A stretch of 64,000 nucleotides of DNA from assembly GCF_058153355.1 (NCBI RefSeq), contig NZ_CM177019.1; one strand, written 5' to 3'. The translations under genes and the position numbers were made by a program. Positions 44,798-61,468 of this stretch are shown in pieces. How positions within the stretch are numbered: position 1 is the stretch's first letter; every line of letters begins with the position of its first letter. The notes below the pieces were generated by a model. It saw only the letters and a program-made list of their open reading frames with translations, was not told the origin of the DNA and did not search any database.

Positions 44798-44994
44798 TAC
44801 TGGCTGCGACACTTTTGAATAAAAGCGTCGACATTTCGGCGCTCATAACGAACTACTTTTGCACTGAAACGAATTGGTGCCAGGATAGCCCGATGACGAT
44901 GCTTAATATTCCACTCACATAGCGTTTTCTGTGTAATACCTAACTTTTGGCATACTTCATCTGGGGTGAGTAAATCGTCGGGTTTCTCGCTCAT
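44794..44994 (-). CDS. AlpA/excisionase-type HTH DNA-binding protein
   Basis: 66-aa ORF LLTPDEVCQKLGITQKTLCEW typical of AlpA/Xis family; stop overlaps int stop. Confidence 0.75.
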   Translation of the reverse strand: MSEKPDDLLTPDEVCQKLGITQKTLCEWNIKHRHRAILAPIRFSAKVVRYERRNVDAFIQKCRSQY

Positions 44995-46385: not shown

Positions 46386-46428
46386 AGTGTTTTAGCCAGT
46401 AGGGCGCGGGTAATCCCGCGCAATAATG

Positions 46429-47235: not shown

Positions 47236-47294
47236 GCTGTATTCTCCATTCAGTAAAAGATGCGCTGGTAGCTGCAACTATCAGCGCGTTTTGT

Positions 47295-47471
47295 TTATTC
47301 ATCCCACGGCTTGTTTGCAGCTTCCCTTGCGGCCTGCTGCGCAAAATAAATCAATTCAAAAGCTAACTGCTCTCCTTTTTCCAGCGAACTGAGAAGTCTT
47401 GCTGTTTCCAGCATGTCCGCGATATACCCGAAAATATCTGCCTGATGTAACTGCGTGATCTGAATAGCCAT
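47295..47471 (-). CDS. Hypothetical small protein (58 aa)
   Basis: Unlisted ORF MAIQITQLHQADIFGYIADMLETARLL... directly upstream of Rha gene, divergent from RHH gene. Confidence 0.35.
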   Translation of the reverse strand: MAIQITQLHQADIFGYIADMLETARLLSSLEKGEQLAFELIYFAQQAAREAANKPWDE

Positions 47472-47489
47472 AGCTTTAGCCTTGTTTTG

Positions 47490-47569
47490 TACTCATTGTG
47501 AGGACTTTATTTATTAGTACTCACAATGAGGCTTGAAGTCAACATGTTTGTGAGGCATGTTGTCCTCAC
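47490..47569. promoter_or_regulatory. Operator-like palindromes in divergent promoter region
   Basis: TACTCATTGTGAGGA (47490-47504) and its inverse TACTCACAATGAGGC (47518-47532), plus GTGAGG-N8-CCTCAC (47550-47569). Confidence 0.6.
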
Positions 47570-47587
47570 ACTTTCAAGGGATCATAT

Positions 47588-47917
47588 ATGAGCAAAAGAG
47601 ACGACCCGCAGTTGAGGGTACGCATACCAGAATTGCTAAAAGAGGCTTTGGAGAAGAAAGCACGGGCTAATAAGAGAACACTGACCTCTGAGATCGTTAG
47701 CCGGTTGGAATCTACTATTCTTCAGGACAAATTACTTCATACATCTAGGGGGTTTGAGGAAGCTGCTGATGAGATTCTCATACTCAGGGATCTTCTCGAG
47801 AAACTTAAAACAACGTACCATCGAGAGTATCAGGCCGAATGGGTTTATGAAAACAAATACGAGCTTATTGAAGCGATGGAAAAACTTAAGAAGTTGCTAA
47901 ATCCTGAGAATGAATAG
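47588..47917 (+). CDS. Arc/MetJ-type ribbon-helix-helix DNA-binding protein
   Basis: 109-aa ORF; N-terminal SKRDDPQLRVRIPELLKEALEKKARANKRTLTSEIVSRL is Arc-like RHH. Confidence 0.7.
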   Translation: MSKRDDPQLRVRIPELLKEALEKKARANKRTLTSEIVSRLESTILQDKLLHTSRGFEEAADEILILRDLLEKLKTTYHREYQAEWVYENKYELIEAMEKLKKLLNPENE

Positions 47918-48062
47918 TGGATTCATCCTCTAAACTTTTACGTAACCGCCGGGTGATTTCGGCGGTTAGTGTTCTGTCGTTTTCTCTGGAAATTTTTTCC
48001 AGTGCGTCTTTCAAGTCTTGCGGGATGCGTACCCGCAATTGTGGGTCATCACGTTTACTCAC
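47886..48062 (-). CDS. Second Arc-like RHH protein (paralog, GTG start)
   Basis: Unlisted 58-codon ORF VSKRDDPQLRVRIPQDLKDALEKISRENDRTLTAEITRRL; GGAGG SD; GTG overlaps VRR-NUC stop; 3' end antisense to 47588..47917. Confidence 0.5.
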   Translation of the reverse strand: MSKRDDPQLRVRIPQDLKDALEKISRENDRTLTAEITRRLRKSLEDESTIHSQDLATS

Positions 48063-48355
48063 AATATCCCCTCCAGATTTTTGCTATCTAATACCACCAC
48101 GCTAAAGCCCAGCTCGCGCAGCCGCTCGTGCTCGCGCAACTGGTCGGCGCGTGGTGCTTTGCCGGGTGCTTTGCATTCAACGAAAACAAGACGGCCGCCG
48201 GGTAGCAGAACAATGCGATCCGGTACCGAGCGGCGACCGGGAGATACGAACTTAAAGGCCACACCGCCAGCCTTTTTCACTTCAGCGACGAGGTGCTTTT
48301 CGATAAGGCTTTCACGTTCATAGGCCATCTGAATCCCACTCTTCAAAAAGCACAT
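48059..48355 (-). CDS. VRR-NUC domain nuclease
   Basis: 98-aa ORF with VAFKFVSPGRRSVPDRIVLLPGGRLVFVECKAPGK core typical of VRR-NUC. Confidence 0.75.
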   Translation of the reverse strand: MCFLKSGIQMAYERESLIEKHLVAEVKKAGGVAFKFVSPGRRSVPDRIVLLPGGRLVFVECKAPGKAPRADQLREHERLRELGFSVVVLDSKNLEGIL

Positions 48356-48617
48356 TCAATTCCAGTTTCTCTGCCAACGCGTTTTCTGCACGTGCGCCAG
48401 CAGAGTACTCCCACTCTTTGAGCATATAAATCGTATCGGCACAGCGAAGCATTGCGAGGCAGATGTCCATATACTGAGCCTGTGTCAAACCATTGGGTAA
48501 AGTTGCGGGGTTAAGCACAACATATCCCTTGTCCGTTAGCCTCTTTGCTGCGGAATGAAAAGCCGGGCGGTTAAATTGCTCGTAACCGCTCATCGGCCCG
48601 GCAACGTAAACGATCAT
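48318..48617 (-). CDS. DUF4406 / nucleoside 2-deoxyribosyltransferase-like protein
   Basis: 99-aa ORF MIVYVAGPMSGYEQFNRPAF..., resembling the deoxyribosyltransferase-like fold family. Confidence 0.55.
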   Translation of the reverse strand: MIVYVAGPMSGYEQFNRPAFHSAAKRLTDKGYVVLNPATLPNGLTQAQYMDICLAMLRCADTIYMLKEWEYSAGARAENALAEKLELNVLFEEWDSDGL

Positions 48618-48829
48618 TCTTCGACCGCCTTACGCTTTTCACGCATATTCTGCATCAGGCAAAAATCAGATCTGCGTTCACTCCATTCCTGATTCAGTTC
48701 GTGATGTGATTCGCGGTTGGCTTTTGCCCAGACCTTCGCTGCCCGGTCATATTCGCCGGATTGTTCAAGTCGCAAAGCCTCCCTTGCAGCCCTGTAATAA
48801 AGTGGATTGTCCCGGTATTTAAATGACAT
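48614..48829 (-). CDS. Hypothetical phage protein
   Basis: 71-aa ORF in operon between polymerase and DUF4406 gene; no recognisable motif. Confidence 0.4.
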   Translation of the reverse strand: MSFKYRDNPLYYRAAREALRLEQSGEYDRAAKVWAKANRESHHELNQEWSERRSDFCLMQNMREKRKAVEE

Positions 48830-48834
48830 AGGAG

Positions 48835-51762
48835 TTAATCCTTACGGTAGTGGTACGCCTCAAAACCGCCAGCGTTCAGTGGGATATCGGGCGCCCATTC
48901 GGGGTTAGTGGAGAGAAGCGCGGAAAGCGCTTTATCGTTGAAATCTTCTGTGTCAGGTGCTTCGGTGATCACCTCGTCGTGTACCGTCAGCACAATGCTG
49001 TAACCGGCATCTTCGATAAGCGGCATGTTTCCGGCCAGAACGTCGCGGGCGGCCGCCTGGGTGACGTTCTCTACCAGCTTTCCGCCGTAGGTTTTGAGTC
49101 GTTGCCATTTACGCGAATAAGAGTTAACACCCATGTAGGTGATATTCCCTTTTTCGATAACCGGAGACGGGTAGCATACAGCGCGTCCGGATGGTAGCTG
49201 TATGCGCAGCCACGCGCCATCGCGGCGGATTTTAAGATAACCGCAATACAATGTTTTTTGCGGTGTGGCGATTGCAGTGCGGATGGTGCGCTCCAGTTCG
49301 TACCAGAAATCGCAGGTCGCCGGGTGCGCCCTGCGCCAGAGACGTTTAAGTGAGTCGCAGGCGATAAATACCCGTTCAGAAAGGCCGTAGGTTGACTTAC
49401 GTTTAACCGATTCGTAGTACCAGCTTTTCGCCTCGCGGATAACATCGCGGGGAATGTTTGGCAGTGCGGCGTTCGCCAGCTCGTCGAGATCGAGACTGTA
49501 AACCAGTGCAAAAGTGATGAAGGCCGACACACCACCACCGTACCCGCAGTTGTGAACGATTAAATGTCCTGAGTCGGTTTTAATCGTGAATCTGTTTCGA
49601 GGCCCCGCATGTGCAATGTCGTAAACATCGCTCCAGCTCGTCGATACGTTTTTGCAGGTCTGCGATTTTTCTTCTGTTGCGGTTATTGTCTGCTTTGGAG
49701 ACGAACTGGATATTACCCGGTTCGTAGCCTTTGTTATTGTCGATGCGATCCATTTCCAACTTTGGGTCATTAAACCCTTTGATTTCCCTGACGTGTAGCA
49801 AAAAAGCTCTTTTATCTTCCTGCCATAGCTGACAAACGTAGATCCCCCGACCGCCGTAGTTGTGAAACAACCTGTTGGTGGGTTTATGGCAACGGCTGAT
49901 TGCGGCAGACAATCGGTTAAGTAGCCTGCGACGGGTTTCGTCATCTGCAATAGCATCCGCATAGCATAAGAATTTTTTACGATACTCGTTATGCTTTTTC
50001 TTTGCGCAAATGTTACATCGGGTACTTTTTCCTTTAAGGAGATTGCTGATTGTTGCGGTGTGAGGCATTGCACCACATTTGCATTTGACAAGTATCCTTC
50101 GGTCTTTTCCGGGTACTTTTTCCAGTTCTTTGATAACGGTAAGTTCTCCGAAGCAAGTTCCAGGCTTTGGTGAAGCGTATTTTTGTTTAAAGCGATAAGG
50201 TTTGCCAGCTTCCATCCAGTAGGGGTTAGCACCTGGTGATCCGGGGTCATTTTTGCTCCGTCCAGTGATATTAAGGCTTTGTACCCCCTGTAAATCAGTC
50301 CTTCGTGTTTTACCCATTCTTCTCCGTCCCATAACAAATCCGCGCCCGAAATACTAACAAGCGGCTTATAGCCTTTATCGGTGAGCACTAAAGTATCCGG
50401 AGCTATGCAAGCCAATTCCAGCACTTTACCTATCTGGCGCTGGTCTTTGGTGACGCGCTCAACTTCAATTCCGTAAGCTTTTGCATACGCCAGTTTATAT
50501 AAGTCCGGACCCGTTCCGGCGTCGTACTCTCTGAATGCATTCAGTTTCCATTCTTCTCCCGCCAGCCATGCCAGCATACGGCCTTCAATGTTCGACAAGT
50601 CACTTACCACCAGTTTTTTACCTGTTGGCGCGATAATGCAGCCACGTAACGCTGAACTGGTTAGTTCCATGATATTGTCAAACAGCAGGTCTGCACATCC
50701 GGCTTTCAGTGCTTCGATGCCTTCGTCTATTTGTTCCTGTTTTAGTGAAGGGCGGGGAAGATTCTGGGGCTGGAATAGCCGTCCGGCCCAGCGCCCGGTA
50801 CGTGACGCCCCGCAGAACTGTAGCGTACCGCGTAAGCGCCCGTCGTGGCTTACGCCTTTCATCAGTGCCTTGTATTTACTGGTGCTGGTAGTACTGGCTT
50901 GCTGGCGGATAGCCAGCAGTTCTTTCACGGCAGATGGTAAATCGGGGTCGGCTATACGACGTTCCAGGGTACTGCGTTGCATGTCTGGTAGCTCCACACC
51001 GTAGGATTCAACGATGTGCTTAATCAACGCGTCCCGTTGTGTGGCTGCCTGCACTTCGCCATCAGTCATTTCCTGTGTACGCTTTGCCAGGCGTTTTTGC
51101 TCCTGGTCTACCGCTTCGATCGCAGCGCGCGCGAGTTGAATGTCCATGCAGACGCCCCGGTCGTTGATCTGCTGATCACGATGCCAGAGCGCCAGTTCTG
51201 TCCCCTGATAATTCCACTTCGGCAGACGTTTATAGACTTCGCGCATTGCCTCGATATCCAGCCCGGCGTAAGCAACAAAGCGCCGCCATTCTTCCGGGTG
51301 GGTTTTACTGGTGGCCCGACGCAGTTTGCTGTTTTTCGGGCGTGGCTTACAGAACAGCTGGATCAGCGCTTTACCTTCTTTGTCCTTCGCTTTGTCTTGC
51401 GGGACGCCGAGTATTTCGCAGAGTTCCCCCAGAGACCCCGGGAGGCCGTGCGCCAGCGCCTGCACCATTGTGTCGCGCCAACGTTCGACTGGCGGTGCCA
51501 GTCGCGGCATTGCATAACGCAGGACGGTGCGGTCGAAGTGAGAGTTATGAAAATAAAGCAGGGTCTCAGGGGCTGCGATTGCTTCGTATAAGCCGTGTGG
51601 AATACCACCACCGGCAGTGATATCCCACACGTTTACGGGCCCGTCGTTGATAGCCCATGCGAACAGCATCACTTCAACGCCTTCGGCATACGCATGGGTA
51701 CCGTTCGTAATAGGGATTTCGCAATAGGTTTCCAGGTCGCCCCATAGAATGTTTTCAGACAA
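48835..51762 (-). CDS. Family-A DNA polymerase with 3'-5' exonuclease domain, interrupted by an in-frame intein
   Basis: 975-aa ORF; motif B reads [10 protein letters not shown][intein][10 protein letters not shown]; motif C VHDEV; N-terminal exonuclease domain. Confidence 0.85.
49549..50409 (-). other. Intein (287 codons) within polymerase motif B
   Basis: Starts [10 protein letters not shown], block [10 protein letters not shown], ends HLIVHN followed by Cys; central ~185 residues lack any endonuclease motif in frame. Confidence 0.75.
49580..50332 (-). CDS. HNH/His-Me finger-like endonuclease ORF in alternative frame inside the intein
   Basis: 250-codon ORF offset from polymerase frame; CKCG...CNIC zinc-finger pair and [27 protein letters not shown] resembling HNH motif. 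Confidence 0.45.
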
Positions 51763-51828
51763 GACAGGGTCCTCCGTGGACTAAACGGTGACAAAAAGCC
51801 CCTGGCTGAGCAGGGGCGGATTGAATGA

Positions 51829-52620
51829 TTAACGAGGTAAAGTGGGTGGAATATATCTGCCGATGCGGTCTTCTATGGTCGGCAGAGCACACATGCTGTC
51901 GCTGAAGCAATCATGCAACTGGTAAACCAGTTTCGAATCCATTTTTTCGAGGGCAGGCATTAACTGCGAGCGCCAGATTTCATTGATGCGCCGGAAGTTA
52001 TGACAGATGGCGCGGAGATTGTTGATGAACATTTCCTTCTCTGCGTCATTGATTGCTGTCTGCACTTTCTGAATACGCTTTGTGCTGCCGTTCCGGTAAA
52101 AGTCCTTCTGCGCAGCGACAGCCTCATCCACGGTCGGATAGCACCCTAAGTAAACGCTTTTCTCTCCGTCCCATGCATAAGCCCTGTACGGATTGTATTT
52201 GCTCCGGTGATGATAAACCATTTTCGGCAGACACTCCCTGTGCGGCGCCAGTATCGTGGAAGACTGCGGAACAGCGGTTTCTTTCTCGATAAGGTCAAGC
52301 ACCCAGCGACGAAATTCTTTTGCTACAGGAGTACTGGCAAGCATGGCGACTAGATGCGCGCCACGAAGGGAGAAAATGCGCGCTTTTGTACGAAGATTGC
52401 TGTAACCTTTTGATATTCCCGAGCACCTCAAATTGAGGTTCTCGGCGATTACAACCATCTCTGAAGAAAACTCGTCAGCGTTGCGGTTATAAATCTGGGT
52501 TATTTTATCTCCGCGTGAATATTCCAGCGCAGTAGCTAAAGTCGCAGCTGTGAACCACAACTTACCATTGTGTTCGACTGTTTCGAGAACGTGGGATTTG
52601 AAAGTGAGTTGAGAGCTCAT
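51829..52620 (-). CDS. Bro-N domain protein with C-terminal AP2-like domain
   Basis: ORF trimmed to MSSQLTFKSHVLE start; KLWFTAATLATALEY is Bro-N; YAWDGEKSVYLGCYPTVDEAVAAQKDF is AP2-like. Confidence 0.65.
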   Translation of the reverse strand: MSSQLTFKSHVLETVEHNGKLWFTAATLATALEYSRGDKITQIYNRNADEFSSEMVVIAENLNLRCSGISKGYSNLRTKARIFSLRGAHLVAMLASTPVAKEFRRWVLDLIEKETAVPQSSTILAPHRECLPKMVYHHRSKYNPYRAYAWDGEKSVYLGCYPTVDEAVAAQKDFYRNGSTKRIQKVQTAINDAEKEMFINNLRAICHNFRRINEIWRSQLMPALEKMDSKLVYQLHDCFSDSMCALPTIEDRIGRYIPPTLPR

Positions 52621-52946
52621 AGTTTTATGTCCTGGTAGATATTTTGAATTTACCCTTTTTGAGAGGGTGGCCGGGCGCTCAAAACCGCTACCAGTCGGCG
52701 GGCGTATTTCCCTTCGGAAGGGTATTGTATTAGCCGCACGCCCGACCATTGAATTCTCAATATCGTGGACATAAAAAATCCGCATGACTGACGGGCGCGG
52801 TTTCCGCTGGTAATAAAGGTGTTTTGAGCACCATGAAGCGGAATATACCCATTGGTTATCGCGGATGTCAATGTATGCTTTTGCAAAAGGTTGTCATCCC
52901 CTTTGCAAAAACACCCGGCGTGCAACCGGGCGTCTGTGAAGGCGGG

Positions 52947-53495
52947 TTAAATCAGTGCTTCAGCATCAGCACCTTCGCTGATATCGTCGAAATCGTCAGC
53001 GCTTGCCACTCCGCCGCCAGCGAATGCATCGCCGTCTCGCAGGAACTGGACTCCGCCGAGTGAGGCATTAATGCGTTTACCGAAATTATTGTCCTGTGCC
53101 CAGATATCGATAACGGCGTTTACATAGCACCCTGCATAGGGACGTCCGTCAGCCTGAATAAGTGGCGAACGATCGCGATCAAGAACAGCTGGGCGCGCTT
53201 TGTTAGCAGCATTCAGGAAGAAATTACCGGGGAAGCCTTCATACTCTGCTTTTTCATCACCATCATGCAGGCACAGATTGAGTTTTTTCTCCAGCTGGTT
53301 ATAAATGGGCTCCCACTTCTCTCCCCATTTTTCCTTCGCTACCTGCTTCATAGCTTTACGGATTTCTTCCAGTTGTGGGTGTTTGGGTGACATTAAAAAT
53401 ACTGCGGAGAAACGTGGATCGCCTTCGCCGTTTACAGTTTTAGCTTCAAACAGAGCAGGAAAAGCTAATCTCACGTTATTTAATTTAATCTTCAT
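52947..53495 (-). CDS. DUF2815-like putative ssDNA-binding protein
   Basis: 182-aa ORF MKIKLNNVRLAFPALFEAK... with acidic C-terminal tail, adjacent to DUF2800 and polymerase. Confidence 0.6.
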   Translation of the reverse strand: MKIKLNNVRLAFPALFEAKTVNGEGDPRFSAVFLMSPKHPQLEEIRKAMKQVAKEKWGEKWEPIYNQLEKKLNLCLHDGDEKAEYEGFPGNFFLNAANKARPAVLDRDRSPLIQADGRPYAGCYVNAVIDIWAQDNNFGKRINASLGGVQFLRDGDAFAGGGVASADDFDDISEGADAEALI

Positions 53496-54007
53496 TTCAA
53501 AACTCCTATAAATTCTATGGATTCTTTTTCCGCTGCTTTACGCGCAATTACAGCTTCCGCTACGGAATTAAATAGACCTAAATGTTTTTCTTTGCCGTGC
53601 AGCTTTATATAAGCTCTCCACTTATTACGGTGACGGCAAACCCCAACGGCACCGCTTTTATTATCAGAGCGTAAGGATTGGTTAATGTTATTTTCGGTAG
53701 AGGTTACAAGTCGTAGATTAGAAAGGGTGTAATTGCTCCGATTTTTGTCTATGTGATCTACCTCTAATCCCGAGGGGATACTACCGTTATGCATAACCCA
53801 GACGATGCGATGTAACAACATTTTCCGACCGTTTACACTTACGTGATAATACCCGTCCGGCCTTATATGTCCCGCTTGCTTATCTGCATATTTAGCATTC
53901 CAGGACAAATAGTCTCGCCGGGTTTTAAAATGGGTGAGCGGACGATATTTCCATATTAAAACGCCATTGTGATACCGGAAGCATTCATTTAAATATTCTT
54001 GATCCAA
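53492..54007 (-). CDS. HNH-AP2 free-standing homing endonuclease
   Basis: 171-aa ORF with LEVDHIDKNRSNYTLSNLRLVTSTEN HNH motif followed by AP2-type domain. Confidence 0.8.
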   Translation of the reverse strand: MDQEYLNECFRYHNGVLIWKYRPLTHFKTRRDYLSWNAKYADKQAGHIRPDGYYHVSVNGRKMLLHRIVWVMHNGSIPSGLEVDHIDKNRSNYTLSNLRLVTSTENNINQSLRSDNKSGAVGVCRHRNKWRAYIKLHGKEKHLGLFNSVAEAVIARKAAEKESIEFIGVLK

Positions 54008-54021
54008 ATAACCTCCTTAAA

Positions 54022-55331
54022 TCAGATGAGGTCTGCGGTTAGCGTATCGTCGGATACGTCGTCGAAATCATTTATAGGGTTGATATTGAGTGCGGGGCGT
54101 GGGTCTGACTCGGGAACGACGGTGGGTTTACCATCAGCTCGTGTTATCAGTGCCTCGACTTTTGACCAACGGCGCGGACTGGCCTTTTTGATAAGTTTTT
54201 CGGCTTTTGTGGGGCTAATAAGTTTAAAGTCGAATACTTCTTCAGTTTTGTACCTGAACTGGTCCTTCAGAAGTGCGCGAGCTGCCTCTTCATCACTCCA
54301 GGCCCGGTTACCTTGTTTTCCTGTTACCAGTTTAAACCCCGGTACCGGATGTCCGGCATTGAGTTCATTGTGAACCCGGTCCCGTACTGCCTTTAGCCAG
54401 GATTCAATAAAGTCGGCCTGACTATAGATCTCCGCAAGCTGCTCAATGGTTAACAGAGGTACACGTGCGCTGGCATTGGTGATTATTTCGCTGACAGGCT
54501 TTGTCAGATCTTCAAAGTCGCTGGCCGCTGTTTGTAAATGCTGCATTTTCTGGGCAGTGCAAATAGCTTTTGCTTTACAGAAGCGGCACTGTTTTTCTCC
54601 AGGTATGAAGTTTTCCAGCGGTAGTGTCTCAATGCCTTCGCATTCAGCAATATTGAGAACAAGGATCGCACTGGTTGCGGCCTCCTGTGCCCGTTCACCG
54701 AAAGACTGAAGTTCCTGTACGGTTAACGACCATTCTGAAACGTGGTTGAGCCTTGGCTGGTGAATAAATAATCTTACAGTCTCAAAGTCATACAGCATGC
54801 TGAATTGTTCGAGCGCACCCAGAGCATACAGTTGTAGTTGCTCATTTTGTTCTGCATCAATGCGGACGCCTTTGCCATATTTCAGGTCGTGGATTTGTAA
54901 TTCGTTACCAGCGATGATTATGCCGTCGGCAGTTCCGAAAGATTCTTCCACCCCCGTTATATGTGAGAAATCAACACGTTGTTCAACCAATAGTTCATTA
55001 TTCTGTGCAAGAGTCCAGACCGTATCAACATACCGGCCAACGGCTTCGACCATTTCATCATCCACCTGTGGGCCAGATGTATCATCAGGATTTTCGCGAA
55101 GGGGGTATGAGCCGAGAAACATAGAAACATAGAAACATTGCATCCGGCGTAGTGTTCCGGGTGGCTTTGCCTGTTTCGTAGAACTTTTTCAGCAAGCGCG
55201 TGCGCTGCAGTGCCCTCGATTGCAAAAGTTGTTTCTTTATCCGGTTGTGTGGCCTCCAGCGCCAGACTTCCTGGGCAGCGCATCCATCGATGCGCTGATG
55301 ATGGAGAAAGTTGTGCGTGAACGTCTGGCAT
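54022..55331 (-). pseudogene. DUF2800-like PD-(D/E)XK nuclease (Cas4-like), frameshifted
   Basis: N-terminal part (from 55331) [15 protein letters not shown] and body (to 54022) with DLKYGKG and C-terminal Cys cluster lie in different frames, switching at the 8-mer repeat. Confidence 0.7.
55115..55138. repeat. Tandem repeat (AGAAACAT)x3
   Basis: Three perfect head-to-tail 8-bp copies at the frame switch in the DUF2800-like gene. Confidence 0.9.
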
Positions 55332-55333
55332 GA

Positions 55334-56236
55334 TTAACCCTCCAGTGCTTTTTCAGCCAGGGTGATTACTTCAGCGAGATTTTCATCCGTTACTTCACCA
55401 AGTTTCCTGGCTCCCTGTTTTTCCAGAATTGCAATAGCTTCTGCCCGGTAGCCCCCTTTTGCTAACTGGAGGATCAACCCTTCAGCTTGTTTGCGTAGTG
55501 CCGCGAAATCAATTGTATGGTCATCTTTGGCGTCATTATTCTGGCTGGAATTTGCTGCGTCTCTGCGTGCAAATTCTTCCTGCAGCTGAAGGTACTCAAC
55601 ACGGTTGATCTCGATATGGCCTTTTTTAAGCATCTCGTTCAACTTGCGTAAGGTGTGGAGTTCACTGGCTGCTGTGCCGGATACATTTTTGACGTAAAAC
55701 GGCCCCGTGCGTTCTCCATCTTTGTTACTGGCCTTTTTCGGCTTAACTTCATCACGCCCATCTGCAGGTGCATCAAGTAGCTGCTCGGCAAAAGCACGTC
55801 GCTCGCCGATGGTTGGCAGGTCGTCCCAGAACTTAAGGATGTTACGGGACAGGTCCAGGAGAGCAGGTTTAAGCAGCGCCCTGGCTCGTTTGACGCCCTG
55901 CAATGCGCTGTCGAGAGCATCAATCTGAACTACTCGTTTATCGCCTTCAGCATCACGGTAGGCAACAGCACGTTGCAGCATGTCTTCTGTGATAGGGGTG
56001 GCTACCGGGTAGAAACCAGCCAGTGCGATAACATCGCTGAACTCCAGATCATCCAGTGTCATTGCCGCTGACATGTTTTCAGCTTCAGTTGCTGTATCCC
56101 GACATTCCTGCACTCGTGAAATCGTGTCAGGATGCATAACAATACCTGATGCCATTGTGCGGATAAGACGTTCAAGCAGCGCATTATGTTGTGCCAGAAG
56201 TTGATTATTAAGTTCTAGACTGGTTTCTAAACTCAT
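55334..56236 (-). CDS. Hypothetical phage early protein
   Basis: 300-aa ORF, helical and acidic, no recognised motif; start overlaps upstream small ORF stop. Confidence 0.5.
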
Positions 56237-57015: not shown

Positions 57016-57708
57016 TCAGAGCAGAACGGAGTACCAAAATACTTGGCCTATAATCCTGATTTTATTAGCCTCTTGATTAAAATACTCTTCGTCTGCGTAT
57101 TCATCCCTATTGAAAGAGCGTATCCGGAGTCCGCTTGGGAGACGGTACAATAGTTTGACACGAAGTAATCCGTCTTGGTCTATAGCGTACATTTGACCAT
57201 CTTTTACACCTGTTTTTGATGTATCTATGCCGACGACAGCGCCATCCGGTAATACCGGTTCCATGCTGTTGCCGTGGATGCTGACACAAGCCGCACAATT
57301 TACGTCAACACCTGCTTTGCGCAACGTTGAACGGGCGAATCTTAACTTACATCCCATTCGATCTATATCAACATAAGTACCATTACCGGCAGATAGTTCA
57401 ATTTCCTGATAGAACGGTATTTCCACTTCATCATCCTCTAATGGCGTTGATGAGTCCCATACAGAAAACCCCCCTTCAACTTGTGCATTAGAATGTATTT
57501 CTTTGGTATCGCTTGTTTTGCCTGAAAGTAGCCACTCTGGAGAAACGTTCAATGCTTCGGCCAGATTTATAAGATTTTTCCCGTTAGGTGTAGTGTTTCC
57601 GGATTCCCATTGTGAAATCGTGGCTTTAGTTAGACCAATACGTTTAGCAAGCGCATCCTGCGTTAGGTGGACATTGCGACGAGCCTCGCGAATACGATCA
57701 TTAATCAT
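57016..57708 (-). CDS. cI: CI-type phage repressor (HTH + S24 LexA-like peptidase)
   Basis: 230-aa ORF; N-terminal LTQDALAKRIGLTKATISQWESG HTH; C-terminal S24 autopeptidase-like domain. Confidence 0.85.
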   Translation of the reverse strand: MINDRIREARRNVHLTQDALAKRIGLTKATISQWESGNTTPNGKNLINLAEALNVSPEWLLSGKTSDTKEIHSNAQVEGGFSVWDSSTPLEDDEVEIPFYQEIELSAGNGTYVDIDRMGCKLRFARSTLRKAGVDVNCAACVSIHGNSMEPVLPDGAVVGIDTSKTGVKDGQMYAIDQDGLLRVKLLYRLPSGLRIRSFNRDEYADEEYFNQEANKIRIIGQVFWYSVLL

Positions 57709-57821: not shown

Positions 57822-58004
57822 ATGAAAAAAGCAGAAGCAATTGAGCTTGCAGGAAGTAAAGCGAAACTAGCGAGACTATTGAAGGTTTCCAAAGGAGCCG
57901 TATCTCAATGGGGGGAGGAAATTCCAGAGCTAAGAGCTCTTCAACTTGAAAAGATTTTGGAGCAAAAAAATGTAGTCAAACAAAAAGGCGTAACCCATGT
58001 CTGA
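57822..58004 (+). CDS. cro: Cro-like HTH regulator
   Basis: 60-aa ORF with LAGSKAKLARLLKVSKGAVSQW HTH, divergent from cI. Confidence 0.65.
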   Translation: MKKAEAIELAGSKAKLARLLKVSKGAVSQWGEEIPELRALQLEKILEQKNVVKQKGVTHV

Positions 58005-60261
58005 TAACAAACCATGGGGAGCTACGCCCGATGAGTGGTTCCACTTCGATCTGGTGTTGGGGATGACAGACAGGCTTTTACCTGTGGTGTCCAATCCCTG
58101 TGCAGAACTGTCGCCTAATAGCAAGCTGTCTCATAATTTCGGCAAAACTCCCTGTTGCTACAATGGTCAACGTAAGGTTGTTGGTATCCCCGACTGGGCT
58201 AACTATGTTGTTACGGAAAACGATTTTGCCCGGTGGTCGAACGAACCCGATTACGGTATTTGCGTTCGTACTGGCGACGGGGTGGTGGCTCTGGACTGCG
58301 ATATCAATGACGCCGGGATGCAGGAGATCGTACGCAATATTATCCTGTCATGCCTGGGGGAACTTCCGCCACGTCGCTGGCGGGCTGACAGTCATAAATG
58401 CCTGTACCTGATTGCTGTTGATGGCGACTACCGTAAACGTGGTCACCGCCTGGAAGGCGAAAATAAACAAATAGAGCTGCTCGCTAAGGGCCAGCAGTTT
58501 GTGGCTTGTGGTACCCATCCGGCAGGCGAACGTATTCAGTGGGACTGCGGTTTGCCCGGCGAACCTCTGAAAATTACATCTGAACAGCTCGAAAGCCTGT
58601 GGCAGCGCCTGGCGGATAACTTACCCGTGAAAGACAGCTATACCGCAGGTGCGGGACGTCAGCGTGACCTTTCCTGTGTCGATCCTTCCGCGACAGATGA
58701 TGTCGCCGACTGGCTTGACGCGAACGGGTGGACTCTGTCGGTCAGCTCTGATGGTTCCCGCAATCTGAAACCGTTTCGGGATGAGTCAGAATACAGCAAC
58801 GGTTGCAGCGAAACATCCATTAAGTATTTCCCAAAAGGGACGGGGGGATTTGAACAGGGACATTTTAAAAGCATGCACAACACCGATGCGGGGCTTACTG
58901 ATGCCGACTGGCTGGAAGGCTACGGCTATACGCAATCTCTGTTCGAAGATCTCACGGTGGCTGAAGATGGCGATAAGCCTGAATTTACCGATATTAATAC
59001 AGATATGACAGCCCATTTTCTGGAACGCTTTATCTACGTCATCGAGGGTGACCAGGTATGTGATCTTAGCCGACCGCCATATCAGTGCATGATGGATATG
59101 AAGTCGTTCAAAAACCTGATGGCGCCTTACCAGTTCCCGCCAGAAGGGAAAGGGCAACCAGTCCCCGCAACCAAACGGTGGATAGAGCATCGGCATAAGA
59201 AGATTGCTGAGACGACAGGCTATAAGCCCGGTGCGGGACGTATTATCGAGCGTTTCGACGGGCGGTTTGAAATAAACGAATTTTATATGCCTGAACATCC
59301 ACGTACAGCGGATACAAGTAAGGTGTCCACGTTCCTTAATCATATGGCGTATCTGGTACCTGATGCCTGGCAGCGCGAGTTTTTCATCGCCCGTCTGGGA
59401 TGGATGGTTCAGCGTCCGGAGCGTCGATGCCCGATTTCTATTCTGCATGTGGCTACCGCACATGGTACGGGCAGAGGATGGGTCAGCCAGTTAATGGAGC
59501 GTGTGCTTGGTCCGTGGAACTGTGCTCGTACTCGCATGAAGATCCTGTGCGATAACCAGTTCCATGACTATCTGTACAATACGCTTCTATGCACCATTGA
59601 CGAGGTGCGCGAAAACGATAAGCGGTATGAGGTGAACGATAAGATCCGTGACGTGCTGACAGAACCACGGTTTGAAGTGAACCGCAAATATGGCAGCAAA
59701 AAAACGATGGATATATACACTGGCTTTCTGTTCTACACCAACCACTTTGATGCGCTGGCGCTGCCAGAGGAAGACAGACGTATCGCTGTGCTGGGGGGGC
59801 CTGACTTCGCCGCAACTGAAGAGCATTACGCCAGCCTGTACGGTGCGCTAAGCGACAGCGACTTTATCGCCCAGGTGTACTGGTATCTGATGGGTGTTGA
59901 CCTGTCTCGCTTTAACTGGCAGCGCGCCCCCGAGACGAAAGAACGCTTTCTGATGATTGAAAGCAATAAGAGCGATGTGGAGGCTGCTCTTATTGAAATC
60001 CTGGATAATCCGCCTGTGCCAGCAATGACTTATCAACAAATTGTTAACGCAATACTGGCAGAAGCAGGAATGGATGTAGAAATTAACCAGAAGCACATAA
60101 CAAAGCTATTGCGAGAAAAAACAAAAAGACAGCCAACAGATTTAGTAAAAATTGACGGAATGGGTTATCGCTTCTGGATACTTGCAAAAAATTGCGACTT
60201 CAATAATGAGGAATTGCGCGAAATATATAAAACTTGCGAAATTTTGCAATCTGGATTGTAA
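57997..60261 (+). CDS. Bifunctional primase-polymerase (PrimPol) fused to C-terminal NTPase/helicase-like domain
   Basis: 754-aa ORF; N-terminal PrimPol-like region; Walker B-like LLCTIDEV; start overlaps cro stop. Confidence 0.75.
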   Translation: MSDNKPWGATPDEWFHFDLVLGMTDRLLPVVSNPCAELSPNSKLSHNFGKTPCCYNGQRKVVGIPDWANYVVTENDFARWSNEPDYGICVRTGDGVVALDCDINDAGMQEIVRNIILSCLGELPPRRWRADSHKCLYLIAVDGDYRKRGHRLEGENKQIELLAKGQQFVACGTHPAGERIQWDCGLPGEPLKITSEQLESLWQRLADNLPVKDSYTAGAGRQRDLSCVDPSATDDVADWLDANGWTLSVSSDGSRNLKPFRDESEYSNGCSETSIKYFPKGTGGFEQGHFKSMHNTDAGLTDADWLEGYGYTQSLFEDLTVAEDGDKPEFTDINTDMTAHFLERFIYVIEGDQVCDLSRPPYQCMMDMKSFKNLMAPYQFPPEGKGQPVPATKRWIEHRHKKIAETTGYKPGAGRIIERFDGRFEINEFYMPEHPRTADTSKVSTFLNHMAYLVPDAWQREFFIARLGWMVQRPERRCPISILHVATAHGTGRGWVSQLMERVLGPWNCARTRMKILCDNQFHDYLYNTLLCTIDEVRENDKRYEVNDKIRDVLTEPRFEVNRKYGSKKTMDIYTGFLFYTNHFDALALPEEDRRIAVLGGPDFAATEEHYASLYGALSDSDFIAQVYWYLMGVDLSRFNWQRAPETKERFLMIESNKSDVEAALIEILDNPPVPAMTYQQIVNAILAEAGMDVEINQKHITKLLREKTKRQPTDLVKIDGMGYRFWILAKNCDFNNEELREIYKTCEILQSGL

Positions 60262-60530
60262 AAAGGTAACAGTAAGGTAACAGTAAAACGACTAACTGTT
60301 ACCTTGAAAATATCAATAAATTCACATGGATAGCTAAAAAAGGTAACAGGTAACAGTAGTATTTAGTTTATATACGCGAGACTTTATATTATACGTGCTA
60401 TACCTGCACATACGTATATAGAACTAAAAGCAACTGTTACCTGTTACCCAAAACGGGGTTAAGCCTTATGTGGCACGCCCTACAGGAGGTAACAGTTAGC
60501 TATTTATCTGTTACCTTACTGTTACCTCAA
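60262..60530. repeat. Iteron array, putative phage origin of replication
   Basis: Ten copies of GGTAACAG (five per orientation, several as tandem pairs) flanking an AT-rich core at 60361-60420. Confidence 0.75.
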
Positions 60531-60577
60531 CAATAAACTTGCAGAAAACTGCAAATAGCTAAGTGGAGTAAACAAAC

Positions 60578-60997
60578 ATGCAAAAAATACAAGTTTCAAA
60601 AATGATAGAAAATGAAACAGCGGAACCGGGAGAAGCATCCACGGCCATACGTTCAGTGGAAGCCGAGACAACCCGAAGGTTTTGGGTCGTAGAGCCCATT
60701 ATTGACAGGGATCAGACTCCCGCAGGTGAGGTTTTTTGGTTCCGCAGGGTGATTGCCTGGGCTGTTGTTCTTGAGCAACTGGAGGGTTTCTCACCGGTTT
60801 CTGCGGTACGTCCGCTTGCTCTGGATAGCGATCTGGGTCAACTGGAGGTTTCCCACGGCAACGTTGTTGAGCTGGAAGATATTCCAAAGGGCGCGACACA
60901 CACTTCCCCGGAGAAAATAGCATCTCGCAAACTGCCTGATGGGTTAGAGATGTCGTTAGACCTTGCGGTAAACGAGTTCTTCTTCCCTGTTGGGTGA
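60578..60997 (+). CDS. Hypothetical phage protein
   Basis: 139-aa ORF between origin and Q gene; no recognised motif. Confidence 0.4.
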   Translation: MQKIQVSKMIENETAEPGEASTAIRSVEAETTRRFWVVEPIIDRDQTPAGEVFWFRRVIAWAVVLEQLEGFSPVSAVRPLALDSDLGQLEVSHGNVVELEDIPKGATHTSPEKIASRKLPDGLEMSLDLAVNEFFFPVG

Positions 60998-61045
60998 TAA
61001 TCTTAGAAAAGTTTTTCCGTAACAAAACGTAGAGAGCAGATAACT

Positions 61046-61468
61046 ATGCGCAGAGATATGCAACTTGTTCTGGAGCGGTGGGGGCGATGGGCCGCGAGCG
61101 AGGAATACTGTTCAATGGTTGACTGGCCTTCGATGTCGGTGATGCCTCAACGCGTAACCGCCAGTGGCAAACCCGGTTGCTCCGACGAGGACGGAGCCGC
61201 AATTGACACCTGCATCGCCCACATGAGCATGGTGTGTCCGCATGACGACTTGCTGGTTCTTGGCCTACGTTTCATCGGCGGCTTTTCTACGCGCTCAATC
61301 GCTGAATCTGTGAATCGTAGCCACCTTAGCGTCAGAACATCGCTTAGAGCGTCAGAGGCATTTCTTGAGGGAGCGCTGGTGCTCCAGGGAATTCGACTGG
61401 ATATGGACCCTGAAGTTGCTTTACCTGAAAAGGTTGTGTGCGCACAAAAACATGTGCTATGGTTGTAG
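61046..61468 (+). CDS. Q-like late-gene antiterminator
   Basis: 140-aa ORF MRRDMQLVLERWGRWAA... resembling prophage Q N-termini; located just before lysis cassette. Confidence 0.65.
   Translation: MRRDMQLVLERWGRWAASEEYCSMVDWPSMSVMPQRVTASGKPGCSDEDGAAIDTCIAHMSMVCPHDDLLVLGLRFIGGFSTRSIAESVNRSHLSVRTSLRASEAFLEGALVLQGIRLDMDPEVALPEKVVCAQKHVLWL

What the first reader, a model, noticed from the sequence alone, without database searches (positions are those of the whole stretch)
60262..60530. Iteron-type replication origin adjacent to the PrimPol-helicase gene
Ten copies of the octamer GGTAACAG (five forward, five reverse, several as tandem pairs) flank a 60-bp AT-rich core (60361-60420) immediately downstream of the primase-helicase gene. 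This is the classic layout of an initiator-binding origin with a DNA unwinding element and is not captured by any ORF.
Basis: partly seen in the sequence, partly recalled or inferred. Interest (0 to 1): 0.55.

Follow-up and report, generated by a model that had tools for sequence, protein, structure and literature searches.

The report
Prophage replication origin matched to its helicase
A 270-bp non-coding stretch just after a prophage's primase-helicase gene carries ten mirror-symmetric copies of an 8-base word that changes in step with the tip of that protein across related phages, so it is almost certainly the phage's replication origin, of a known kind but not previously described for this phage group.

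Summary
Ten exact GGTAACAG copies (5 forward, 5 reverse) lie at 60265-60526, where about 0.009 are expected. They start 4 nt after the stop codon of a PrimPol + SF3 (DUF5906) helicase gene in a lambdoid-type E. coli prophage.

The sites form a perfect dyad about 60395: F F R, 38 nt, F F | 77-bp core at 70% AT | R R, 39 nt, F R R.

In relatives from 8+ genera the ten positions and spacer lengths are kept. The word changes in concert: GGTAACAG, GGTGACAG, GGTGACGG, GGTGGCAG, GGTTGCAG, GGTGTCAG.

Word type tracks residues ~703-726 of the helicase, the recognition helix and wing of a predicted C-terminal winged helix. Four blind predictions of word from protein tail were correct. In a three-way comparison of prophages, only helicase residues 700-754 tracked the word type.

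Within one type, repeat columns are 99-100% identical across genera and spacers about 60%. Spacers of the two arms are not complementary, so a hairpin is not being selected.

Best reading: a self-loading initiator-helicase origin like SaPI ori/Rep and P4 ori/alpha.

Origin firing and the exact melting site are inferred, not shown. This is a new member of a known kind.

The parts
57997..60261 (+). Gene for the 754-aa PrimPol (AEP primase-polymerase) + SF3 helicase (DUF5906, NrS-1-like) + C-terminal winged-helix protein, the proposed initiator.
   Evidence: ORF list. Pfam Prim-Pol aa 78-185 and DUF5906 aa 488-595. PHROG 1156 'DNA primase'. PDB sequence match to the NrS-1 primase helicase domain 6k9c, aa 456-659, E=6.6e-8.
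60088..60180 (+). Codons 698-728: the predicted recognition helix (aa 698-709) and beta-hairpin wing (aa 717-728) of the C-terminal winged helix. This is the only protein segment that tracks the repeat type.
60265..60303 (.). Left outer trio of octamers: 60265-60272 (+), 60276-60283 (+), 60296-60303 (-). Start-to-start spacings are 11 and 20 bp.
   Evidence: The positions are conserved in 14 aligned relatives and at fixed offsets +4/+15/-35 from the stop codon.
60304..60341 (.). Left spacer, 38 nt, about 71% AT, low duplex stability. Its length is conserved but its sequence is not. It carries a weak IHF-like motif (1 mismatch).
   Evidence: In relatives the least stable 30-mer alternates between this spacer and the core.
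60342..60356 (+). Left inner pair of overlapping octamers (60342-60349 and 60349-60356), pointing toward the core.
60357..60433 (.). Central 77-bp core, 70% AT, bounded by a conserved inverted pair TATATACG (60369-60376) and CGTATATA (60413-60420). The dyad centre is about 60395. This is the proposed melting and helicase-loading zone.
   Evidence: Sequence. The bounding motifs are conserved across genera. The stability profile places it in the top 0.16% least stable 30-mers. Midpoints.
60434..60448 (-). Right inner pair of overlapping octamers (60434-60441 and 60441-60448), mirror image of the left inner pair.
60449..60487 (.). Right spacer, 39 nt, only 46% AT, stable duplex. It contains a moderately conserved AAGCCTTATGTGGCRCGC block. 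It makes the element asymmetric in composition although the sites are symmetric.
60488..60526 (.). Right outer trio: 60488-60495 (+), 60508-60515 (-), 60519-60526 (-), mirror image of the left trio.
60234..60249 (.). Left TTGC-N8-GCAA palindrome (TTGCGAAATTTTGCAA), inside the last codons of the helicase gene. Possible auxiliary site; status uncertain.
   Evidence: One of only two exact matches in the 64-kb window. The pair's midpoint (60394) coincides with the dyad centre. Invariant in E. coli relatives.
60539..60554 (.). Right TTGC-N8-GCAA palindrome (TTGCAGAAAACTGCAA), just outside the array and before the next ORF. Possible auxiliary site; status uncertain.
   Evidence: Partly conserved in enterobacterial relatives and absent in Xenorhabdus. 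Also picked up as a weak minus-strand hairpin.

Best explanation
This is the lytic replication origin of a lambdoid-type E. coli prophage that replicates with its own PrimPol-SF3 helicase instead of lambda O/P.

Proposed mechanism:
1. After induction, rightward early transcription makes Cro and the 754-aa PrimPol-helicase.
2. The helicase's C-terminal winged helix (recognition helix aa 698-709, wing aa 717-728) reads the octamer GGTAACAG. GGT..C.G is common to the family, and positions 4, 5 and 7 are read by variable wing and helix residues.
3. Five protomers bind each arm of a perfectly dyad-symmetric array: F F R, 38 nt, F F | core | R R, 39 nt, F R R.
4. This nucleates one hexamer per arm next to the unstable, TATATA-bounded 77-bp core.
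5. The DNA melts there or in the equally unstable left spacer.
6. Two SF3 rings load in opposite orientation and move apart.
7. The fused PrimPol domain primes, and the phage's own family-A DNA polymerase with a Gp2.5-like SSB extends.

Shown here: the sites, their symmetry, their conservation, the selection on them, and their exclusive covariation with the helicase tail. Predicted: the winged-helix fold. Inferred by analogy with SaPI Rep/ori and P4 alpha/ori: binding, melting, double-hexamer loading and bidirectional firing.
For: Enrichment and symmetry:
- 10 sites against about 0.009 expected, and all mirrored pairs share a midpoint of 60395-60395.5.

Conservation of the plan:
- Fixed offsets from the stop codon in E. 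coli, Salmonella, Klebsiella, Serratia, Izhakiella, Arsenophonus and Xenorhabdus.
- The same plan with an unrelated octamer, TTGGACCA, in a distant relative (34% identity in the C-terminal domain), and approximately in Limnobaculum.

Concerted switching and covariation:
- Six octamer types occur at the same ten positions.
- E. coli proteins 99-100% identical over aa 1-702 differ at aa 703-746 exactly by type.
- Serratia proteins 68% identical overall share both the window's octamer and its wing motif.
- In Xenorhabdus, GKKERPW goes with GGTGGCAG and GKTERPW with GGTTGCAG.
- Four blind predictions of octamer from tail (recorded) were all correct.

- In the B771 / window / DEC5E comparison only helicase aa 700-754 track the type (100% vs 73%).
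- CI, Cro and the downstream ORF track the opposite way. Q and the late genes do not track.

Selection:
- Within type A across genera, repeat columns are 99.4% identical and other array columns 61.5%.
- Spacer length is fixed at 38/38-39 nt in nearly every lineage.

Fold:
- AF2 pLDDT 83 with winged-helix topology.
- All top PDB hits are winged helices, including ORC, Cdc6, Cdt1 and MCM WH domains.
- Viral hits are the C-termini of other phage primase-helicases.

Single locus:
- A complete relative phage has no second cluster of its octamer.

Context:
- The prophage encodes its own DNA polymerase, SSB, exonuclease and second helicase.

Precedent:
- SaPI origins have 6-12 iterons immediately downstream of rep, split by a central AT-rich region, with opposed orientation, read by a C-terminal winged helix of a self-loading helicase (PMC9371898).
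- The site plan and word of P4 ori are very similar.
Against: - No experiment: binding, melting and origin activity are all inferred.
- The helicase tail and the array are physically adjacent, so part of the covariation could be co-inheritance of one recombination module. This is mitigated by the conserved block between them (85-93% identity at 60187-60276), by spacer divergence with repeat identity, and by concerted change at ten sites.
- The core is not uniquely AT-rich. The left spacer is as unstable and the right spacer is GC-rich, so the melting site is uncertain.
- There are five sites per arm, not six, so the stoichiometry of hexamer nucleation is unexplained.
- This copy's PrimPol domain carries S53C/R54C at conserved positions, so this particular prophage's enzyme may be impaired.
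- There is no detectable sequence homology to P4 alpha, and the P4 alpha origin-binding domain is not among the listed fold hits.
Confidence: 0.8

Rival explanations
1. The array is bound by the helicase but is an auxiliary or regulatory cis element like P4 crr, or a copy-control, handcuffing or titration site. It could also be a roadblock delaying read-through to Q. On this reading DNA synthesis starts elsewhere.
For: P4 crr also lies immediately 3' of the alpha gene and has ten annotated type-1 octamers, while P4's actual ori lies about 2.1 kb on the other side of the gene. The array sits between the helicase gene and Q in the rightward operon, so bound protein could affect transcription.
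Against: A complete relative phage has no second cluster of its octamer, only scattered single copies. No other 8-mer cluster exists anywhere in the window. The array has the inverted, AT-rich-centred plan of experimentally defined SaPI origins, not the direct 120-bp repeats of crr.
Confidence: 0.1
2. The repeats are operators for a different phage DNA-binding protein (CI, Cro, Q, the downstream ORF, or an unseen regulator) and control transcription.
For: The array lies in an intergenic region of an early operon. Palindromic site pairs such as 60276/60296 resemble operators.
Against: B771 (type A) and DEC5E (type C) have identical CI and Cro and a 98.7% identical downstream ORF, yet different octamers. 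The window (type A) has an unrelated CI, Cro and downstream ORF, yet the same octamer as B771. Q is 36% vs 44% identical and does not track type. Late genes do not track either. No plus-strand promoter or terminator is predicted. Genes further than those compared were not tested.
Confidence: 0.04
3. The region is selected as a nucleic-acid structure: a long hairpin or cruciform, or a structured RNA between the helicase gene and Q. Concerted changes in the inverted repeats would then merely preserve pairing.
For: The arms are inverted repeats (41 nt at 88% and 27 nt at 89% complementary). The Rfam E-value scan gives weak hairpin-type hits at 60341-60449.
Against: Pairing would need only that each site match its mirror partner. 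It would not require all five pairs to share one word, nor that site 3 be the reverse complement of sites 1-2 in the same arm. The 38-nt spacers of the two arms are no more complementary than shuffled sequence (z from -3.2 to +1.7 in 14 lineages), and the core halves are only marginally complementary. The Rfam hits are far below gathering thresholds and are to eukaryotic miRNA families.
Confidence: 0.03
4. The array is a binding site for a host factor, or a partition or packaging site unrelated to replication initiation.
For: Symmetric site arrays around a bend site occur in plasmid and phage centromeres (established knowledge). A weak IHF-like motif (1 mismatch) lies in the left spacer in 7 of 14 lineages.
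Against: Three different octamer types occur in prophages of the same host species, which excludes a host reader. There are no conserved DnaA boxes and no exact IHF sites. The array is 2.7 kb from the small terminase gene and does not track late-gene type. No par genes are nearby.
Confidence: 0.02

Closest known systems
SaPI origins and their Rep / PriRep self-loading helicases (Staphylococcus aureus pathogenicity islands)
   Same: As described in PMC9371898, the origin lies immediately downstream of the helicase gene. It has 6-12 short iterons split into two sets by a central AT-rich region, with sites on the two sides pointing in opposite directions. A winged helix in the helicase C-terminal domain reads the iterons, different islands have different cognate pairs, and in SaPI5 the primase is fused to the helicase. 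All of these anatomical features are seen here.
   Different: The host is a Gram-negative temperate phage, not a satellite. The sites are octamers rather than penta- or hexamers. There are exactly 5+5 sites in a perfect dyad with fixed spacers. The SaPI Reps did not appear in the sequence search against PDB chains, so the resemblance is functional and not shown to be homology.
Satellite phage P4: alpha protein (primase + SF3 helicase + C-terminal winged-helix origin-binding domain) with ori and crr type-1 iterons
   Same: One polypeptide combines primase, SF3 helicase and a C-terminal winged helix (PMC2777425). A ten-octamer element (crr) lies immediately 3' of the gene. The P4 word GGTGAACAG has the same GGT...CAG ends as GGTAACAG here. 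The P4 ori sites run F F F R, 43 bp, F F, then AT-rich DNA, with spacings 10, 11, 22, 43, 10. One arm here runs F F R, 46 bp, F F, then AT-rich DNA, with spacings 11, 20, 46, 7.
   Different: There is no detectable sequence homology (BLASTP E=0.34, hhalign probability 0.1%). P4's primase is DnaG/Toprim-type (PMC2777425), whereas this one is an AEP PrimPol. P4 needs two separated elements, ori and crr, and crr is made of direct 120-bp repeats. Here two arms are fused in inverted orientation at one locus with no second cluster. The central part of the word is 2 nt here, not 3.
pRN1 ORF904 (archaeal plasmid replication protein) and its downstream origin
   Same: The domain order is the same: prim/pol, SF3 helicase, C-terminal winged helix. 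The essential cis region lies downstream of the gene (PMC2777425; PMC4234260 abstract).
   Different: For pRN1 no cognate repeated binding site could be identified. Here the sites are explicit and co-vary with the wing. The host domain and the element type also differ.
Lambda-type origins (O-protein iterons; ori-specificity types among lambdoid phages)
   Same: The position in the early rightward operon after cro is the same. Repeated initiator sites sit next to an AT-rich region. Distinct initiator/iteron specificity types are exchanged as a module among otherwise similar phages (established knowledge of lambdoid phages; also PMC7466680, listed).
   Different: In lambda the iterons lie inside the O gene and are read by the N-terminal domain of a non-helicase initiator that recruits host DnaB through P. 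[quoted passage not shown]
SV40 / papillomavirus origins (large T antigen, E1)
   Same: An SF3 helicase that is its own initiator, with dyad-symmetric short sites and flanking or central easily melted DNA, and two hexamers loaded for bidirectional unwinding (established knowledge).
   Different: The viral origin-binding domains are N-terminal to the helicase and are not winged helices. The site numbers and spacing differ. Double-hexamer loading here is inference only.

Membership tests
Iteron origin of a self-loading initiator-helicase (SaPI ori / P4 ori class) | Cluster of short repeated sites next to (3' of) the initiator-helicase gene, far above chance | tested here: met
   10 sites in 262 bp starting 4 nt after the stop codon. 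About 0.0085 are expected, and 0 of 100 shuffles reach the window count.
Iteron origin of a self-loading initiator-helicase (SaPI ori / P4 ori class) | Two sets of sites in opposite orientation flanking an AT-rich, easily melted region | tested here: met
   5+5 sites form a perfect dyad about 60395. The core is 70% AT and in the top 0.16% least stable 30-mers. However, the left spacer is equally unstable.
Iteron origin of a self-loading initiator-helicase (SaPI ori / P4 ori class) | Initiator carries a C-terminal winged-helix DNA-binding domain | tested here: met
Iteron origin of a self-loading initiator-helicase (SaPI ori / P4 ori class) | Cognate specificity: different elements have matched initiator/iteron pairs | tested here: met
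   Six octamer types each pair with a distinct wing motif. Four of four blind predictions were correct. Only helicase aa 700-754 track the type.
Iteron origin of a self-loading initiator-helicase (SaPI ori / P4 ori class) | Direct sequence-specific binding of the initiator to the sites | not testable with these tools
   Needs EMSA or footprinting. Only covariation evidence is available.
Iteron origin of a self-loading initiator-helicase (SaPI ori / P4 ori class) | Gene plus array supports autonomous replication, and initiation maps to the array | not testable with these tools
   Needs a plasmid replication assay or marker-frequency analysis.
P4 alpha / ori-crr system | Initiator homologous to P4 alpha (Toprim/DnaG-type primase + SF3 helicase + alpha-type origin-binding domain) | tested here: not met
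   BLASTP E=0.34 and hhalign probability 0.1% for the C-terminal domain. The primase domain is AEP Prim-Pol. No P4 alpha chain appeared in the PDB sequence search, and none is among the listed fold hits.
P4 alpha / ori-crr system | Type-1 iteron TGTTCACC (GGTGAACA) sites | tested here: not met
   The word here is GGT-NN-CAG and in P4 is GGT-GAA-CAG. The ends are shared but the centre is one base shorter.
P4 alpha / ori-crr system | Bipartite cis requirement: ori plus a distant crr made of direct 120-bp repeats | tested here: not met
   The complete relative phage has a single cluster, and the arms here are inverted and adjacent. The functional requirement itself cannot be tested.
P4 alpha / ori-crr system | Site plan F F R, about 45 bp, F F, followed by AT-rich DNA | tested here: met
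   P4 ori spacings are (10) 11, 22, 43, 10. The spacings here are 11, 20, 46, 7.
Lambda O/P-type origin | Iterons inside the initiator (O) gene, with O and P homologues present | tested here: not met
   The array is intergenic. The only replication gene between cro and Q is the PrimPol-helicase.
DnaA-dependent (oriC / plasmid) origin | Conserved DnaA boxes (TTATNCACA) in or beside the AT-rich region | tested here: not met
   The window has no match with 1 mismatch or fewer. Only sporadic, non-conserved 1-mismatch hits occur in 4 of 14 relatives.

The most novel reading that the evidence does not exclude
The element may be a compact, self-contained dyad origin on which an AEP-primase/SF3-helicase fusion loads two rings in opposite orientation. 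That would be a bacterial-phage counterpart of SV40 and papillomavirus origins, and effectively P4's ori and crr arms fused into one locus. Its natural series of at least six matched pairs would amount to a readable code: wing residues 722-726 (MGY.F, [CN]T[NQ].F, [IV]AQ.F, FVY.I, [MD][TA]V.M, KKE.P, KTE.P) specify octamer positions 4, 5 and 7. The types may have diversified to keep co-resident prophages and satellites from firing each other's origins.
Probability: 0.35. Interest if true: 0.6.

Novelty: new member of a known kind. Interest (0 to 1): 0.45.

Why it matters
This replication module (cI, cro, PrimPol-helicase, array, Q) occurs in prophages of E. coli, Salmonella, Klebsiella, Citrobacter, Serratia, Xenorhabdus and Arsenophonus. 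In the literature held here it has no described origin.

Knowing the origin gives three things:
- A defined non-lambda replicon type for classifying enterobacterial prophages, alongside the Eru types of Stx phages.
- A small gene-plus-origin cassette that could be tested as a set of mutually orthogonal replicons.
- A rare natural data set in which single wing-residue changes in a winged helix pair with single base changes repeated at ten sites. This makes winged-helix specificity and SF3 helicase self-loading directly testable by swap experiments.

It does not reveal a new principle. The logic is that of SaPI Rep/ori and P4 alpha/ori.

Tried and rejected
- **Rfam E-value scan of 59800-61100.** Only sub-threshold eukaryotic miRNA and CRISPR-repeat hits caused by the palindrome. 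Rejected as an RNA gene.
- **Sigma-70 promoter and intrinsic terminator scan.** Nothing on the plus strand beyond chance.
- **Hairpin or cruciform selection.** Spacer complementarity between the arms is at chance.
- **Homology to P4 alpha.** None by BLASTP or hhalign. The P4 alpha origin-binding domain is not among the listed fold hits or viral fold hits.
- **Second, crr-like cluster.** None in the complete relative phage 606R2 and none in the window.
- **DnaA boxes and IHF sites.** None conserved. Only a weak 1-mismatch IHF-like motif in the left spacer.
Excluded by the three-way prophage comparison.
- **Literature.** The Eru1-3 replication types of Stx phages are different modules. Octamer-string and DUF5906/iteron searches found no prior description.
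- **PHROGs on the downstream ORF 60578-60997.** No family.
- **Distant relatives.** Two of four (L034, L035) showed no downstream repeat cluster, so the arrangement is not universal for the wider protein family.
- **One blind-test locus (L026).** It proved to be a decayed copy with only 4 exact sites and its right outer arm missing.
Full report
**Observation**

The stretch 60262-60530 contains ten exact copies of GGTAACAG. Five are forward (60265, 60276, 60342, 60349, 60488) and five are reverse (60296, 60434, 60441, 60508, 60519).

The whole 64-kb window holds 14 copies against 1.39 expected from dinucleotide-preserving shuffles, and none of 100 shuffles reach 14. From base composition about 0.0085 copies are expected in 262 bp. 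No other 8-mer in the window has five or more copies within 300 bp.

The five mirrored pairs all share a midpoint of 60395.0-60395.5. The layout is F F R, 38 nt, F F | 77-bp core | R R, 39 nt, F R R, with start-to-start spacings 11, 20, 46, 7 on the left and 7, 47, 20, 11 on the right.

The core (60357-60433) is 70% AT against 50% for the window. It is bounded by the inverted pair TATATACG (60369-60376) and CGTATATA (60413-60420).

A nearest-neighbour stability profile places the core among the 0.16% least stable 30-mers of the window. The left spacer (60304-60341) is just as unstable and the right spacer (60449-60487) is GC-rich and stable. 'AT-rich core' is therefore true but not exclusive.

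**Context**

The array begins 4 nt after the stop codon of ORF 57997-60261 (754 aa). That ORF carries a Prim-Pol domain (aa 78-185) and a DUF5906 SF3-helicase domain (aa 488-595). It matches PHROG 1156 'DNA primase' and the helicase domain of the phage NrS-1 primase-polymerase, 6k9c.

The gene order is:
- CI-like repressor, 57016-57708 (-)
- Cro-like, 57822-58004 (+)
- PrimPol-helicase
- the array
- an unassigned ORF, 60578-60997
- Q antiterminator, 61046-61468
- lysis genes
- small terminase, from 63268 (annotated relatives)

The prophage sits next to yfhL with an integrase at 43394-44797. Its leftward operon encodes a second helicase, a family-A DNA polymerase, a Gp2.5-like SSB and an exonuclease. 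This phage therefore brings most of its own replisome and has no lambda O/P.

**Comparative anatomy**

In E. coli relatives the helicase gene is about 98% identical in DNA up to window position about 60066. Identity then falls to 57-60% over 60097-60186, recovers to 85-93% over the last about 20 codons, and is 58-75% across the array.

Aligning the intergenic regions shows that all ten sites are kept in place but the word changes as a set. It is GGTAACAG in the window and strain B771, GGTGGCAG in TB06051, and GGTGACGG in DEC5E, BCE049, SI-NP020, 82.0312 and phage vB_EcoM-606R2.

Loci from other genera show the same offsets from the stop codon (+4, +15, -35, +81, +88 | about -173, -180, +227, -247, -258) with these words:

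| Word | Lineages |
|---|---|
| GGTAACAG | Serratia, one Salmonella |
| GGTGACAG | Izhakiella |
| GGTGACGG | another Salmonella |
| GGTGTCAG | Klebsiella aerogenes and a metagenomic contig |
| GGTGGCAG | Xenorhabdus szentirmaii and X. innexi |
| GGTTGCAG | X. vietnamensis and X. griffiniae |

Across 14 aligned arrays, octamer positions 1-3, 6 and 8 are essentially invariant (GGT..C.G), and positions 4, 5 and 7 vary.

A much more distant relative (34% identity in the C-terminal domain) has the same F (F) R .. F F | core | R R .. F R plan built from TTGGACCA. Limnobaculum has an approximate version built from TGACACAG. Two other distant relatives have no such cluster.

**Who reads the sites**

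Seven E. coli-type proteins are 99-100% identical over aa 1-702. Almost all their differences fall in aa 703-746 and partition exactly by word type:

| Type | Tail | Word |
|---|---|---|
| A | ITKLLREKTKRQPTDLVKIDGMGYRFWIL | GGTAACAG |
| B | ITRVLKERTKREAVK-LKVDGMTVRMWLL | GGTGGCAG |
| C | ITRILKERTKREPVR-VKIDGFVYRIWIL | GGTGACGG |

Serratia proteins only 68% identical overall carry the type-A wing (DLVKI.GMGYRFWIL) together with the type-A word. In Xenorhabdus, GKKERPW goes with GGTGGCAG and GKTERPW with GGTTGCAG.

I recorded four predictions of word from tail before seeing the DNA: P0020 gives GGTAACAG, P0025 gives GGTGGCAG, P0026 gives GGTGACAG, and P0004 gives GGTGACGG. All four were correct. 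P0026's locus is a decayed copy with only four exact sites. Two proteins with an unseen wing (G[CN]T[NQ]RFW) revealed a sixth word, GGTGTCAG.

An AlphaFold2 model of aa 620-754, built on 42 sequences gathered from a search of 1.84 billion representatives, has mean pLDDT 83. Its topology is that of a winged helix. The recognition helix is aa 698-709 and the beta-hairpin wing is aa 717-728, which is where the type-specific residues lie.

**Linkage or function**

The tail and the array are adjacent, so co-inheritance is a real concern. Three results argue for function.

First, within one word type across genera the repeat columns are 99.4% identical while the remaining array columns are 61.5% identical. 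For the window against Serratia the figures are 100% and 59.7%. The words are therefore held fixed while the surrounding DNA drifts.

Second, ten sites changing to the same new word requires a common trans-acting reader.

Third, there is a natural three-way comparison. B771 is type A with lambda-like siphovirus late genes. The window is type A. DEC5E is type C. Helicase aa 700-754 is the only early-region protein segment that is identical within a type (100%) and different between types (73%). CI, Cro and the downstream ORF are identical or 98.7% identical between B771 and DEC5E and unrelated in the window. Q, the lysis genes and the late genes do not track type. Everything else is equally similar to both.

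**Rivals**

A hairpin or cruciform, or a structured RNA, would also preserve inverted-repeat complementarity. It would not require all five pairs to share one word. The 38-nt spacers of the two arms are no more complementary than shuffled sequence (z from -3.2 to +1.7 in 14 lineages), although their length is fixed at 38/38-39 nt in nearly every lineage. Rfam gives only sub-threshold hairpin-type hits.

No plus-strand promoter or terminator is predicted. No DnaA boxes or exact IHF sites are conserved, and a 1-mismatch IHF-like motif recurs in the left spacer in 7 of 14 lineages.

A crr-like auxiliary role cannot be fully excluded. However, the complete relative phage has no second cluster of its word and the window has no other repeat cluster, so there is no candidate for a separate origin.

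**Comparison with known systems**

The closest functional match is the SaPI ori/Rep system. There the origin lies immediately downstream of rep and holds 6-12 iterons split by a central AT-rich region, with opposed orientation. The iterons are read by a winged helix in the C-terminal domain of a self-loading helicase, and in SaPI5 the primase is fused to it (PMC9371898).

The closest match in site anatomy is satellite phage P4. In the P4 record, crr lies immediately 3' of the alpha gene and has ten annotated octamers. P4 ori reads GGTGAACAG x3, then one inverted copy, then 43 bp, then two more copies, followed by AT-rich DNA. That is F F F R, 43 bp, F F with spacings 10, 11, 22, 43, 10, against F F R, 46 bp, F F with 11, 20, 46, 7 for one arm here. 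The word shares its GGT...CAG ends.

The proteins nevertheless show no detectable homology. P4's primase is DnaG-type, and P4 uses two separated elements. So this element works like P4 but is not a member of the P4 alpha family.

The domain order prim/pol, SF3 helicase, winged helix, with an essential downstream cis region, is that of archaeal pRN1 ORF904. For that protein no cognate sites could be found (PMC2777425).

The Eru1-3 non-lambdoid replication modules of Stx phages are different genes (PMC8044961). Searches of the held literature found no description of this origin. Only four phage records, all induced prophages, carry a close homologue.

**Verdict**

- Shown: the array, its dyad symmetry, its conservation, the selection on the words, and exclusive covariation with the helicase's C-terminal residues.
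- Predicted: the winged-helix fold.
- Inferred: binding, melting (core or left spacer), loading of two SF3 rings and bidirectional firing.

This is a new member of a known kind of origin, with an unusually clean natural specificity series that makes it a good experimental system. Confidence that the helicase tail reads the octamers is about 0.9. Confidence that the array is the lytic origin is about 0.8.

Noticed in passing
window 48835-51762 (-): The prophage's family-A DNA polymerase ORF is 974 aa. Polymerase matches cover aa 3-452 and 800-974, and an 'endonuclease' PHROG (phrog_93) matches aa 470-760. Pfam DNA_pol_A is likewise split (aa 274-448, and weakly 916-939). Relatives have a 687-aa polymerase without the insert. 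It looks like an in-frame intein or homing-endonuclease-type insertion.
   Followed up: partly
window 58153-58158 (codons 53-54 of the helicase gene): This copy has Cys-Cys (TGT TGC) where all close relatives have Ser-Arg (AGT CGC). Ser53 is nearly invariant across the family and sits between invariant P52 and Y55. The primase domain of this particular prophage may be impaired.
   Followed up: partly
window 60234-60249 and 60539-60554: These are the only two exact TTGC-N8-GCAA palindromes in the 64-kb window. They flank the array symmetrically, with a midpoint of 60394 against a dyad centre of about 60395. The left one is embedded in the conserved last codons (C-E-I-L-Q) of the helicase gene. 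A relaxed copy lies at 60182. The right one is partly conserved in enterobacterial relatives but not in Xenorhabdus. It may be an auxiliary site, or it may be coincidence.
   Followed up: partly
window 60449-60487: The two arms are symmetric in sites but asymmetric in composition. The right spacer is GC-rich (46% AT) with a moderately conserved block AAGCCTTATGTGGCRCGC, and the left spacer is 71% AT. The asymmetry is conserved across genera and is unexplained. It might set a preferred melting side or a start site.
   Followed up: partly
window 43394-56236: The prophage is integrated beside yfhL, downstream of rnc-era-recO-pdxJ-acpS. Its leftward operon carries an integrase, a DEAD/SNF2-type helicase, two anti-repressor-like genes, a DNA polymerase, a Gp2.5-like SSB (DUF2815), an exonuclease (DUF2800) and a conserved unknown (phrog_6784). 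This is a near-complete, T7-like replication and recombination set in a lambdoid-style temperate phage.
   Followed up: partly
window 60578-60997 (+): The 139-aa ORF right after the array has no PHROG family. The same-length ORF follows the array in a Salmonella relative (L024). Other relatives have unrelated 76-aa or 96-aa ORFs at this position, which makes it a variable 'moron-like' slot between the origin and Q.
   Followed up: partly
L036 (E. coli B771) against window and L037 (DEC5E): The same early replication module, with the same type-A origin, is joined to lambda-like siphovirus head and tail genes in B771, but to a different structural gene set, seen in DEC5E and 606R2, of which the window shows only the shared small-terminase type before it ends. 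The replication module moves between unrelated virion types.
   Followed up: no
L026 3720-4080: This is a decayed copy of the element. The helicase stop codon is lost, so the ORF reads through the first three sites. The second site is degenerate, the inner right pair is degenerate, and the outer right trio is missing.
   Followed up: yes
L032 4042-4229: A satellite-like element (integrase, AlpA, HTH, PriCT_2/DUF5906 helicase) has six AGGTAACA(C) repeats about 180 bp downstream of its helicase gene, up to the contig end. The word closely resembles the type-A phage word although the wing sequence differs. There is also an unexplained ATAGCAA cluster (8 copies) at 198-459.
   Followed up: partly
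L015 878-1227 (Limnobaculum locus): A dense repeat (13 copies of overlapping 8-mers such as GGAGCTAC and GCTACCGA within 350 bp) lies about 2 kb upstream of the helicase gene. It is unrelated to the origin repeats and was not examined.
   Followed up: no
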